Source of the DNA: Eledone cirrhosa
Lineage: Eukaryota
Assembly (NCBI GenBank): GCA_964016885.1
Contig: OZ024758.1
Location: forward strand, 18,476,001 to 18,540,000
Direction of reading: 5' to 3'
Length of the DNA: 64,000 nt
The position numbers and the translations under genes were made by a program. Each line of letters starts with the position of its first letter. Within the stretch, counting starts at the first letter, position 1. The notes under the pieces are model-generated. The model had not been told where the DNA came from and made no database searches. It worked only from the letters and a program-made list of their open reading frames with translations. Below are positions 17,136 to 32,962 of this stretch, one piece after another.

Positions 17136-17357
17136 ATGTTTATATACAATCATACGCACAAATACAGATACACAACCGTACACACATATATATATATATT
17201 ATATATATATATATATATATTAGAAAGTGAGGTTTTTTTTACAAAATGAAAAATAACCGAGGTGTCCTACACGAGTGGAAGTATAAAGAAAAAGGGATGA
17301 AATCGAAAATGCAACTGAAGTCTTATTTTTTTAAAAGATATATATATTTATTTGGTT

Positions 17358-17395
17358 CCTTTACCGGTTTCGCAGTTCTTCTGCTTTTCAAAAGG
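17358..17395 (-). ncRNA. Minimal type I hammerhead ribozyme, U3-A8 core (family G)
   Basis: Exact reverse complement of 17542-17579. Confidence 0.75.
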
Positions 17396-17541
17396 TGAGT
17401 TGAGATGGAGGGTCTGTGGTTTTTCTCACATCTGGTTGGTCTCTAAATGTTACTTGTTTTACCGCTTTTTCCATATAAAACAAGTAACATTTAGAGACCA
17501 ACCAGATGTGAGAAAAACCACAGACCCTCCATCTCAACTCA

Positions 17542-17579
17542 CCTTTTGAAAAGCAGAAGAACTGCGAAACCGGTAAAGG
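17542..17579 (+). ncRNA. Minimal type I hammerhead ribozyme, U3-A8 core (family G)
   Basis: CCUU-UUGAAAA-GCAG(aagaa)CUGC-GAA-ACCGGU-A-AAGG: 4-bp stem I, 4-bp stem II, palindromic stem III, GUA cleavage site. Confidence 0.78.
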
Positions 17580-17648
17580 AACCAAATAAATATATATATC
17601 TTTTAAAAAAATAAGACTTCAGTTGCATTTTCGATTTCATCCCTTTTT

Positions 17649-17727
<79 letters not shown>

Positions 17728-26500: not shown

Positions 26501-26648
26501 AAGTAGAAGAGGTATTTAATATGTTTGAAGTCCGACAAATATAAATGTATATAACTGATTTAGAGCACTCAACAGTTTCTGGAGTAAATATTCAATGATA
26601 TTAAATAAATGGAAATTATATATATAAAACCATATTTATTTTATTATA
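26501..26648 (-). mobile_element. Family A 3' segment, truncated at about the HHR cleavage site
   Basis: Reverse complement of ~23488-23637. Confidence 0.75.
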
Positions 26649-26969
26649 GACTATCCAGTGAATTTCCAAGATGCTAAGATAGAATACAGGGGTAGATTAG
26701 AGAACATAGAAATAAAAATAGAATCCACACACAGAAAAGATGCAATGTTTAGGCAAATTACAGAGGCAGTAAGCATAAAAGAATTACAACCAAAATTAAA
26801 TAGAAAATATGAGTGGAACAGCAAGATCACAACTTACAATTAAGGACAAAATGAAAACACACACAGGACAAAATGAAAACACACACACACATAGAACAAA
26901 CAAGCAACCAACAATAAATAAATAAATAAATAAACAAATAGATAAATGAACACATACACACACAGATAC

Positions 26970-27027
26970 CCGGATGTGGCGCATGCGCAAACTGAGCACA
27001 CAACACACACACAGAAACAAAATGGCG
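26970..27027 (+). promoter_or_regulatory. Candidate internal promoter of the pLTR (ETS-like, NRF1-like and YY1-like motifs)
   Basis: ccggatgt at 26970-26977, gcgcatgcgc at 26979-26988, aaaatggcg at 27019-27027. aaaatggcgtag is also kept in the diverged relative at ~8396-8407. Confidence 0.4.
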
Positions 27028-27072
27028 TAGGATAGAAGAAAGGAAAGGCACAGAACAAAGAGAGGAATCCCC

Positions 27073-27117
27073 AGTCACTGAAGAGGTCACAGAGTGTGTG
27101 ACGAAAGGATTATGACT
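27073..27117 (+). ncRNA. Minimal type I hammerhead ribozyme in PLE 3' UTR
   Basis: Stem I agtca/tgact, CUGAAGA at 27078-27084, one extra G, stem II gtcaca/tgtgac, GAAA at 27103-27106, very short stem III, UUA site. Confidence 0.7.
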
Positions 27118-27360
27118 ATATATAAACAACTATCTAGTTGTGGAACCAACCAACCAGAAATTTATAAGTTTGTAGATTTGTAAATTTATAAATTTATAAA
27201 TATATAATAAATTGAAGTGAAAGCAACTGGTGCGTGTGTTTCTTATTGGCAACATGACCCCCCCAAAGTATAACAATATCAGTTTCAACACACGATTTCA
27301 GATAAAGAATCTTGCTAAACAAATTCAGAAACGAAATATATATATATATATATATATATG

Positions 27361-27404
<44 letters not shown>

Positions 27405-27518
27405 TATAGGTATATATATATACACATATATATAGGTATATATATATATTATGAAGAGAGAAGAAACATTTAGATATAATTAGTAATAAAATGTATCATA
27501 CCTAAACTGTTCCTAAAT

Positions 27519-27606
27519 TCCTCGACTACGTAGTTTCGTGGCATAAACAAAAACAATATATCAAAGATATAGAGTCCTTGCGAGGTCTGCCGACTTATCA
27601 AGAGGA
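27519..27606 (-). ncRNA. Type I hammerhead ribozyme, U3-A8 core, unit 1
   Basis: Minus strand: UCCUC-UUGAUAA-GU(C)GGCA...UGCCAC-GAA-ACUACGUAGU-C-GAGGA. GUC site, predicted cut between 27524 and 27523. Confidence 0.8.
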
Positions 27607-28109
27607 TACCTCATTTTACTAGTCTCAAGAACGCATCTACACGACGTGAGAAAGAATCCCAAAAGGCGGAGGGGGAGATAGTCACGCGATATAACGGTCG
27701 AGAAACAGAGCTAAGCCTCTTATAACCACGAAAAAAATACCACGGAGGCGGAGGGGGTATTCATATCGAGGCCGCAGAAGAGGTAGTGAAGAAGGCGAGA
27801 AGTATGAGTAATGGAAGCTTTCCAGTTGTCCCCACACTTCAAAGATTGCTCGACCAGAGGGAGTTATTAATACATTTAGAAACACACAGATACATGCGGA
27901 CACACACATATATACATTAATGCATCCGCACCCAACTGTGAGTTAAGGGTGCCAACTTCACCGATGTTGCTCAATGAATGACTGGGACAGACCAATTCAG
28001 TTTGAACCAGACTGAACCAGTATCAGAGTTAAAAATACATTATGAAGAGAGAAGAAACATTTAGATATAATTAGTAATAAAATGTATCATACCTAAACTG
28101 TTCCTAAAT

Positions 28110-28197
28110 TCATCGACTACGTAGTTTCGTGGCATAAACAAAAACAATATATCAAAGATATAGAGTCCTTGCGAGGTCTGCCGACTTATCAAGAGGA
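28110..28197 (-). ncRNA. Type I hammerhead ribozyme, unit 2 (stem I mismatch at 28112)
   Basis: Same as unit 1 except tcctc is tcatc on the + strand. Confidence 0.7.
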
Positions 28198-28700
28198 TAC
28201 CTCATTTTACTAGTCTCAAGAACGCGTCTACACGACGTGAGAAAGAATCCCAAAAGGCGGAGGGGGAGATAGTCACGCGATATAACGGTCGAGAAACAGA
28301 GCTAAGCCTCTTATAACCACGAAAAAAATACCACGGAGGCGGAGGGGGTATTCATATCGAGGCCGCAGAAGAGGTAGTGAAGAAGGCGAGAAGTATGAGT
28401 AATGGAAGCTTTCCAGTTGTCCCCACACTTCAAAGATTGCTCGACCAGAGGGAGTTATTAATACATTTAGAAACACACAGATATATGCGGACACACACAT
28501 ATATACATGAATGCATCCGCACCCAACTGTGAGTTAAGGGTGCCAACTTCACCGATGTTGCTCAATGAATGACTGGGACAGACCAATTCAGTTTGAACCA
28601 GACTGAACCAGTATCAGAGTTAAAAATACATTATGAAGAGAGAAGAAACTTTTAGATATAATTAGTAATAAAATGTATCATACCTAAACTGTTCCTAAAT

Positions 28701-28788
28701 TCCTCGACTACGTAGTTTCGTGGCATAAACAAAAACAATATATCAAAGATATAGAGTCCTTGCGAGGTCTGCCGACTTATCAAGAGGA
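28701..28788 (-). ncRNA. Type I hammerhead ribozyme, unit 3
   Basis: Same motif as unit 1. Confidence 0.8.
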
Positions 28789-29291
28789 TACCTCATTTTA
28801 CTAGTCTCAAGAACGCGTCTACACGACGTGAGAAAGAATCCCAAAAGGCGGAGGGGGAGATAGTCACGCGATATAACGGTCGAGAAACAGAGCTAAGCCT
28901 CTTATAACCACGAAAAAAATACCACGGAGGCGGAGGGGGTATTCATATCGAGGCCGCAGAAGAGGTAGTGAAGAAGGCGAGAAGTATGAGTAATGGAAGC
29001 TTTCCAGTTGTCCCCACACTTCAAAGATTGCTCGACCAGAGGGAGTTATTAATACATTTAGAAACACACAGATACATGCGGACACACACATATATACATG
29101 AATGCATCCGCACCCAACTGTGAGTTAAGGGTGCCAACTTCACCGATGTTGCTCAATGAATGACTGGGACAGACCAATTCAGTTTGAACCAGACTGAACC
29201 AGTATCAGAGTTAAAAATACATTATGAAGAGAGAAGAAACATTTAGATATAATTAGTAATAAAATGTATCATACCTAAACTGTTCCTAAAT

Positions 29292-29379
29292 TCCTCGACT
29301 ACGTAGTTTCGTGGCATAAACAAAAACAATATATCAAAGATATAGAGTCCTTGCGAGGTCTGCCGACTTATCAAGAGGA
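29292..29379 (-). ncRNA. Type I hammerhead ribozyme, unit 4
   Basis: Same motif as unit 1. Confidence 0.8.
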
Positions 29380-29875
29380 TACCTCATTTTACTAGTCTCA
29401 AGAACGCGTCTACACGACGTGAGAAAGAATCCCAAAAGGCGGAGGGGGAGATAGTCACGCGATATAACGGTCGAGAAACAGAGCTAAGCCTCTTATAACC
29501 ACGAAAAAAATACCACGGAGGCGGAGGGGGTATTCATATCGAGGCCGCAGAAGAGGTAGTGAAGAAGGCGAGAAGTATGAGTAATGGAAGCTTTCCAGTT
29601 GTCCCCACACTTCAAAGATTGCTCGACCAGAGGGAGTTATTAATACATTTAGAAACACACAGATACATGCGGACACACACATATATACATGAATGCATCC
29701 GCACCCAACTGTGAGTTAAGGGTGCCAACTTCACCGATGTTGCTCAATGAATGACTGGGACAGACCAATTCAGTTTGAACCAGACTGAACCAGTATCAGA
29801 GTTAAAAATACATTATGAAGAGAGAAGAAACATTTAGATATAATTAGTAATAAAATGTATCATACCTAAACTGTT

Positions 29876-31192
<1,317 letters not shown>

Positions 31193-32814: not shown

Positions 32815-32962
32815 AAAGAGGGTGTGGTAAGATAACGGGTGGACCATAATACACAATAATTAGGGTAGTAGAGTGGGTAATAGGAACGGATTCAGGACCC
32901 CGACGGCTGAGCTCCGGCCAGACGTCTCGACAGCTAGATCGTACTCTAGCTGTCCAAACGGC
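32815..32962 (-). mobile_element. Family C diverged copy
   Basis: agggtagtagagtgggtaataggaac...gaccccgacggctgagctc and a gacagctaga/tctagctgtc fold-back. Confidence 0.75.

What the first reader, a model, noticed from the sequence alone, without database searches (positions are those of the whole stretch)
27595..27601. Compensatory U3-A8 catalytic core and a large branched stem II insert in the array HHR
Seen: the core reads UUGAUAA instead of CUGAUGA, so both positions 3 and 8 are changed. Stem II encloses ~42 nt with two small hairpins (CCU-cgca-AGG and UAUAUC-uuu-GAUAUA). Known: positions 3 and 8 form a tertiary Watson-Crick pair, and U3-A8 is a rare natural variant that keeps activity. Inference: the double change points to selection for cleavage, not decay, and the insert may tune the rate or bind protein.
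Basis: partly seen in the sequence, partly recalled or inferred. Interest (0 to 1): 0.75.

Follow-up and report, generated by a model that had tools for sequence, protein, structure and literature searches.

The report
Knotted hammerhead ribozyme in jumping repeats
A hammerhead self-cutting RNA motif, repeated about 7,000 times in this animal genome, has a known letter swap in its catalytic core, and its long extra arm is predicted to be an unbranched stem whose side loop likely pairs with the RNA just upstream to brace the ribozyme, a match kept with different letters in several related repeat families; cutting itself is predicted, not shown.

Summary
The core UUGAUAA is real (minus strand, 27601-27595). 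It lies in a type I hammerhead in each 591-bp unit of a (TA)n-inserted, non-coding tandem element with at least 7,038 hammerhead copies in the genome. U3-A8 is published for Penelope-like element hammerheads, so it is not rare in this setting. It is under selection: kept in all subfamilies down to about 63% identity, no amplified single mutant, and related families switch wholly to C3-G8. New here: the stem II internal loop (ACCUCG) complements UGAGGU just 5' of stem I. The same in-register complement recurs with different letters in four more sequence classes (GAGUUU/AAACUC, GAGC/GCUC, GGAAA/UUUCC, UUUCUC/GAGAAA), with either core. The insert most likely supplies a stem I-II pseudoknot, a known hammerhead brace that I did not find described for animal retrozymes. 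Cleavage is untested, and 5' ends of copies do not mark the cut. Earlier scan notes reported retrozymes and long stems II in this genome; I found none on this pseudoknot.

The parts
27448..29875 (-). Single-armed insertion of the non-coding element: 4.1 tandem units of 591 bp, at most 3 differences between any two units, flanked by (TA)n; 3' end at fixed site A, 5' end truncated
27595..27601 (-). Hammerhead core U3-U4-G5-A6-U7-A8-A9 (U3-A8 variant), unit 1; same core with U3 at 28192, 28783 and 29374
27608..27613 (-). UGAGGU, 5' strand of the predicted pseudoknot, 1 nt upstream of stem I
27602..27606 (-). Stem I 5' strand UCCUC
27538..27594 (-). Stem II domain, 57 nt: 6-bp basal helix with bulged C, asymmetric internal loop, distal rod
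27581..27586 (-). ACCUCG in the stem II internal loop, 3' strand of the predicted pseudoknot
27547..27581 (-). Unbranched rod GCAAGGAC/GUUUUUGU plus UAUAUC-uuu-GAUAUA
27525..27537 (-). G12-A13-A14 and palindromic stem III ACUACGUAGU (hairpin +1.5, homodimer -12.9 kcal/mol)
27519..27524 (-). C17, predicted cut between 27524 and 27523, then stem I 3' strand GAGGA
   Evidence: the cut is inferred from the hammerhead consensus

Best explanation
This is a type I hammerhead motif in every unit of a very abundant non-coding tandem repeat, likely a retrozyme copied by Penelope-like enzymes, and its long stem II is predicted to be an unbranched rod whose internal loop likely pairs with the strand just 5' of stem I, forming a 6-bp pseudoknot that would hold stems I and II parallel for cleavage. 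Steps: (1) shown: sequence, copy number, conservation of U3-A8; (2) inferred from folding and variation: the rod; (3) inferred from in-register complementarity in five sequence classes: the pseudoknot; (4) inferred from known hammerhead structure: U3-A8 replaces the C3-G8 tertiary pair and keeps activity; (5) inferred from palindromes kept through changes: two neighbouring units swap stem III strands and cut as a dimer; (6) inferred: the released 591-nt monomer is circularised and copied round by a PLE reverse transcriptase primed on nicked (TA)n. Both pseudoknot strands lie 5' of the cut, so the brace could form during transcription before the 5-bp stem I closes; it would replace the loop I-loop II contact that these short-stem-I ribozymes lack.
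For: Rod. Pseudoknot inside the family: 95.8% of cells paired in 67 rows, 98.1% in 52 rows. UGAGGU is intact in 25 of 30 rows of the most diverged subfamilies, found with a pattern that did not include that strand, while its neighbours and stems I, II and III changed with double-sided swaps. The outer pair occurs as U-A, U.G and C-G; 97 of the first 100 of 181 copies with C have G. Across families: F2 YGAGUUU/AAACUCG, F5 UGAGC(A)/(U)GCUCR, F3 UGGAAA/UUUCCA (also AAUGGAAA/UUUCCAUU and AAUAGAAA/UUUCUGUU), F9 UUUCUC/GAGAAA. For F5-F8 the upstream strand was predicted from the loop before the flank was fetched. Cognate helices are 5-7 Watson-Crick pairs, cross-class ones 2-4 with one exception of 5; the 5' strand ends 3-7 nt before the core in all 11 clan representatives. 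Selection on 3-8: 11 copies with non-U3 (none C3-G8) and 14 with non-A8 against about 7,000; core 14 of 14 in every subfamily against 333 of 493 outside the ribozyme for the most diverged; C3-G8 families F2/F5 are homologous and nest among U3-A8 families. Retrozyme/PLE: arms up to 4.9 units, 35 of 38 two-armed insertions end at fixed sites A+B in (TA)n; the monomer folds as a circle with z=-7.1 against 40 shuffles. Pseudoknot disruption slows other hammerheads 20- to over 100-fold (PMC3088659 passages).
Against: No cleavage, structure probing or RNA data. 5' ends of 118 arms are not enriched at the predicted cut (4 within 10 nt, 4.0 expected). Inside the family, double-sided changes in the pseudoknot are few (3 cells), and the 67-row set does not beat its shuffles clearly (23 of 500). 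Per-family shuffle P values are modest (F2 0.003, F7 0.045, F3 0.049, F5 0.068, F8 0.088, F10 0.12, F9 0.15, F6 0.37), and the families share ancestry. The abundant family F4 (P 0.88) and 6 single hits (P 0.91) do not fit. Ten of about 29 variants of the intermediate old subfamilies carry changes in UGAGGU. Core conservation is partly built in, because copies were found with core patterns. No protein-coding partner was found.
Confidence: 0.72

Rival explanations
1. The ribozyme is active and the rod is real, but the loop-flank complement is an alternative, inhibitory or processing fold (for example ACCUC capturing the GAGG after the cut site, or GAGG-UAU-CCUC opening stem I), not a brace.
For: In the window's subfamily the hairpin GAGG-UAU-CCUC (-2.4) and CCUCG/CGAGG (-6.1) are possible, and the hairpin is in the minimum-energy fold.
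Against: In the most diverged subfamilies stem I is CUCCC/GGGAC, and in F2, F3, F5 and F9 it differs again, so these swaps are not kept, while the flank-loop complement is.
Confidence: 0.1
2. One reading: a branched two-hairpin insert that binds a protein or tunes the rate of an unusual core.
For: Both hairpin strings exist. The rod is kept as a structure, and its role beyond closing the loop is unexplained.
Against: CCU/AGG is broken in 32 and 40 of 67 rows, pair probability 0.000; rod length and sequence differ between families; long stem II also occurs with C3-G8.
Confidence: 0.05
3. The motif no longer cuts, or cuts very slowly; the fold is kept for another job such as recognition by the PLE protein, and arrays come from uncut multimeric transcripts.
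For: 5' ends ignore the cut site and arms cross it up to four times; published metazoan PLE hammerheads cut poorly in vitro (PMC4209133).
Against: All catalytic positions and GUC are kept while U7 varies; 3 and 8 switch together between families; a circular template also explains read-through.
Confidence: 0.13

Closest known systems
Minimal type I hammerheads of Penelope-like elements, including the U3-A8 class of Schistosoma (Cervera and de la Pena 2014, PMC4209133; parts 1-2 of 4 read, one of two readable supplements had passages)
   Same: Type I, 4-5 bp stem I, G10.1-C11.1, palindromic stem III, U3-A8 covariation, inverted pairs of motifs.
   Different: Helix II there is 7-8 bp with a short loop and no pseudoknot is mentioned in what I read; here a 44-nt insert with an internal-loop pseudoknot and a rod, and a 10-nt palindrome.
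Metazoan non-LTR retrozymes (PMC7229834, passages; bioRxiv 10.64898/2026.07.22.740005, part 1 of 5 and passages)
   Same: Non-coding tandem repeats, one type I hammerhead per unit, GC 42%, highly self-paired monomer, dimer-type stem III as in axolotl, proposed PLE origin.
   Different: Unit 591 nt against 150-450 bp described; no loop 1-loop 2 contact; U3-A8; circular RNA not shown here.
Pseudoknot-stabilised hammerheads (Perreault et al. 2011, PMC3088659; section 8 and passages)
   Same: A 5-6 bp pseudoknot between stem I and stem II regions replaces the loop-receptor contact; about 40% of their hammerheads, all three types, including human C10orf118.
   Different: The cases described in the passages use a terminal loop and a tail; here the strand is an internal loop with a 7-15 bp rod beyond it, in a dimer-type animal retroelement. 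I could not see their figures.
PK hammerhead, PDB 8YDC (PMC11300833, part 1 of 6)
   Same: Hammerhead core with a 6-bp pseudoknot.
   Different: There the pseudoknot replaces helix II; here helix II is intact and the knot is peripheral.
PLE-X1_sMoe and PLE-X1_sTam hammerheads (Craig et al. 2021, PMC8557442, File S2)
   Same: PLE hammerheads with 29-35 nt in loop 2, so a long stem II has precedent.
   Different: Plant, endonuclease-less, C3-G8; listed only as deviating from the canonical structure.

Membership tests
Type I hammerhead ribozyme | Core YUGANRA / GAAA / UH around three helices, stem I open | tested here: met
Type I hammerhead ribozyme | Watson-Crick pair between positions 3 and 8 | tested here: met
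   U3-A8 fixed in the family; C3-G8 in homologous families; mismatches only sporadic
Type I hammerhead ribozyme | Match to an Rfam hammerhead model | tested here: not met
   0 hits at gathering score in the window; no hammerhead among 27 hits at E<=10 for 26900-28100. The canonical-core motif at 27078 is missed too.
Type I hammerhead ribozyme | Site-specific self-cleavage | not testable with these tools
   No raw RNA reads; 5' ends of copies give no footprint
Pseudoknot-stabilised hammerhead | Four or more base pairs linking stem I and stem II regions, with covariation | tested here: met
   5-8 pairs in register in five sequence classes; weak covariation inside the family; family F4 does not fit
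Pseudoknot-stabilised hammerhead | Rate falls on disruption and is rescued by compensation | not testable with these tools
   needs kinetics
Metazoan non-LTR retrozyme | Tandem non-coding units, each with a type I hammerhead, dispersed at many loci | tested here: met
   two short frames of the unit have no Pfam hit
Metazoan non-LTR retrozyme | Monomer accumulates as linear and circular RNA | tested here: inconclusive
   No RNA holder listed; a 621-nt cyclic contig fits tandem DNA equally
Non-autonomous Penelope-like element | 5'-truncated partial tandems, inverted 5' partner, unequal 3' ends, (TA)n target | tested here: met
   features as in PMC8557442 passages
Non-autonomous Penelope-like element | 3' end or hammerhead shared with an RT/GIY-YIG-coding element | tested here: inconclusive
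   One PLE family tested (30 loci plus 15 downstream stretches): no related hammerhead, only low-complexity similarity; other families not tested

The most novel reading that the evidence does not exclude
A clan of animal retrozymes uses an undescribed hammerhead build: an internal loop of a long stem II knots to the strand before stem I and a distal rod stacks on the knot, giving a fast, dimer-gated ribozyme pre-folded before the cut site is made. This would show that Penelope-linked hammerheads are not all minimal and slow, that standard searches miss thousands of them, and that C3-G8 and U3-A8 cores have been exchanged, perhaps twice, on one scaffold.
Probability: 0.45. Interest if true: 0.68.

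Novelty: new variant of a known kind. Interest (0 to 1): 0.5.

Why it matters
Animal PLE hammerheads are described as minimal, without tertiary contacts and slow in vitro, with an unclear role. A natural series with a covarying Watson-Crick brace, both core pairs and a swappable stem III gives a direct test of whether they are selected to cut fast and only as dimers. It also gives a search rule (loop-flank complement, long stem II) for motifs that Rfam misses. U3-A8 alone adds little: it is known.

Tried and rejected
Branched fold: rejected. A short-stem-II or C3-G8 ancestor with the same stem III: 7 hits, all false registers inside the long insert; 0 C3-G8 among 11. A conserved switch through GAGG-UAU-CCUC: not kept in other subfamilies. 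Cut-site footprint in 5' ends: none. Expression: no RNA holder listed; contigs of four runs cover the unit, and two hold a contig running back 591 nt with 59 and 117 letters on the short side, which does not tell circle from tandem DNA. AUCUCA/UGAGAU in L129 looked like a compensatory subfamily but is sporadic (2 of the first 100 of 187 rows have that exact loop in this subfamily). Pseudoknot in family F4, in 6 single hits and in the two short-stem motifs of the window: not supported. Coding partner: not found in the one family tested. Short frames of the unit: no Pfam match. One origin of U3-A8 in the clan: neither shown nor rejected (p-AU 0.19). In one search the F1young row was read one base off; one search has the right register. 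Three primary papers on PLE hammerhead dimers and 3-8 mutants (PMC5785218, PMC1986816, PMC2271363) are not held, so I give no U3-A8 rates and cannot exclude that the first describes this build.

Full report
Observation. Window 27595-27601 is TTATCAA, so the core UUGAUAA is on the minus strand. It belongs to a full type I hammerhead: stem I UCCUC/GAGGA, core, a 57-nt stem II domain from G10.1 to C11.1, GAAA, the palindrome ACUACGUAGU and C17. The motif lies in each unit of a 591-bp array of 4.1 near-identical units set in (TA)n. Rfam does not find it. The window is G000:C19:18476001-18540000 of a 3.0-Gb assembly; that it is octopus-like is taken from earlier scan notes and not tested here.

The family. 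An exact pattern finds 7,038 hammerhead copies (tandem units, not insertions) against 0 for the reversed pattern; of the first 100 listed, 99 read UUGAUAA and one UUGAUGA. More diverged subfamilies give 466 and 187 matches and fall to about 63% identity with the window's unit. Copies are 5'-truncated tandems ending in (TA)n at two fixed sites (61 A, 49 B, 7 other among arms with both ends seen); 35 of 38 two-armed insertions use one of each, and arms reach 2,907 nt. These are the features described for PLE insertions (PMC8557442 passages), and internal initiation is reported for one PLE enzyme (PMC11167929, part 1 of 4). The monomer folds as a circle at -172.6 kcal/mol against -133.7 +/- 5.5 for 40 shuffles, with the cut site paired away. 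I file it as a retrozyme that likely borrows PLE enzymes; the partner was not found.

U3-A8. It is known: Perreault 2011 reports natural U3-A8 and cites in vitro activity (PMC3088659 section 8), and Cervera 2014 found about 1,300 such motifs in Schistosoma PLEs. A second family with a short stem II in this window has it too (17546). It is selected. Only 11 copies have another base at 3 (5 C, 4 G, 2 A; none with G8) and 14 another base at 8 (8 G, 4 T, 2 C), scattered as expected of decay after insertion. U3 and A8 are invariant in 52 rows spanning all subfamilies while U7 varies and stems I, II, III and the rod change on both sides. Those rows were chosen by me (19 of the 67 variants, 33; truncated, junction and deletion rows left out), and they were found with core-bearing patterns, so core conservation is partly built in. 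Searches that left 3 and 8 free (225 hits against 33 control; 2,560 against 335; only the first 100 of each seen) gave homologous families with shared upstream motifs. With 3 and 8 masked, C3-G8 families F2 and F5 nest among U3-A8 families; the best tree needs two switches, and one is not rejected (p-AU 0.19; low-identity alignment, three rows include junction sequence).

The insert is a rod. Older subfamilies read ACAAAAAC at this place, which destroys that hairpin (64% of cells paired) and keeps the rod as A-U pairs. This leaves AGACCUC unpaired in an asymmetric internal loop.

The pseudoknot. ACCUCR in that loop complements YGAGGU, which ends one base before stem I. Within the family both strands are an island of conservation: 11 of 12 positions are kept in every subfamily, and UGAGGU is intact in 25 of 30 rows of the most diverged ones although it was not in the search pattern. 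True covariation inside the family is slight: the outer pair is U-A, U.G or C-G, and C goes with G in 97 of 100 listed copies, which one event could explain. The stronger test is between families. F2 has YGAGUUU/AAACUCG and F3 UGGAAA/UUUCCA. From the loops listed I predicted the flanks of F5-F8 before fetching them and found UGAGC/GCUCR (F5), UGAGG/CCUCA (F6, F7; F10 likewise) and UGAGAAGU/ACUUCUCA (one of two F8 copies); F9 gave UUUCUC/GAGAAA with purines and pyrimidines exchanged. Cognate pairs give 5-7 Watson-Crick pairs and cross-class pairs 2-4, with one exception of 5; the register is constant. Against: F6 copies are decayed (median 4, P 0.37), F4 and six single hits do not fit, single-family P values run from 0.003 to 0.37, and the families are related. 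F2, F3, F5 and F9 have C3-G8, so the knot does not exist to rescue U3-A8.

Mechanism. Shown: sequence, copy number, conservation, insertion geometry. Inferred: a tandem transcript folds the rod and the knot first, since both strands lie 5' of the cut; two units pair their stem III palindromes (hairpin +1.5, dimer -12.9 kcal/mol; palindromes kept as CUACGUAG, CUGUACAG, CUGCAG, CCCAUGGG and others); the knot holds stems I and II parallel, as in hammerheads where breaking it costs 20- to over 100-fold (PMC3088659); cuts release a 591-nt monomer that is circularised and copied round by a PLE enzyme. The rod starts right after the knot strand, so stacking is my guess for its role. Against activity: 5' ends of 118 arms are not enriched at the cut (4 against 4.0 expected); a circular template predicts this as well as an uncut one.

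Novelty. Pseudoknots between stems I and II are common in hammerheads, and long loops II occur in two plant PLEs. A review describes PLE hammerheads as lacking tertiary loop contacts (PMC7761336 passages). Six literature searches (listings seen) showed no report of this build in animal retrozymes, but PMC5785218 and two kinetics papers are not held, figures cannot be seen, one supplement of PMC4209133 was not searched and bioRxiv supplements are closed. PMC6765202 and PMC7151607 were seen as passages only. Earlier scan notes cover two-armed retrozymes and long stems II in this genome; a word search for this pseudoknot found no note with all words. Verdict: new variant of a known kind; interest 0.5.

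Noticed in passing
window 17300-17650: Fold-back insertion of another family with a U3-A8 hammerhead (UUGAAAA, 13-nt stem II, palindrome ACCGGU) on both arms (17546+, 17391-); also in L077.
   Followed up: partly
window 26628-27335: 3' remnant of a GIY-YIG-type PLE (relatives in L057, L074, L100, L111; Neptune-like by recalled motifs) with a C3-G8 minimal hammerhead at 27078, back to back with the array across (TA)n.
   Followed up: partly
window 31012-31190 and 32830-32960: Two more (TA)n-flanked elements of one other family, the first a clear fold-back with GAAAC...GUC and a long near-palindrome.
   Followed up: no
window 29875-31012: About 1.1 kb of (TA)n broken by GG/CC, with mostly GGTA in the first half and TACC in the second, beside the element's 5' end, where the unit holds TACC.
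   Followed up: no
L133, L179, L187, L190, L196, L203 upstream of the core: Motifs CTCCC..GGTNGAG and CTGCTNTTTCTAGCA are shared by distant families of the clan; possibly an internal promoter.
   Followed up: no
window unit, minus strand, monomer positions 10-62 and 152-245 after the cut: Both fixed 3' ends follow long hairpins and end in AATGT/AATAT merging into (TA)n.
   Followed up: partly
L143, L144, L197-L199, L214, L216: Family F4: very abundant C3-G8 hammerhead with a roughly 58-nt stem II of another build; no consistent flank complement.
   Followed up: partly
PMC8557442 File S2, row PLE-X1_sMoe: By eye, the 5' flank GACGG complements CCGTC at the start of its 35-nt loop 2, which a hairpin follows: the same layout may exist in a plant PLE. 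Untested.
   Followed up: no
window 28112: Unit 2 has GAUGA for GAGGA in stem I, a private change absent from the four runs laid.
   Followed up: yes
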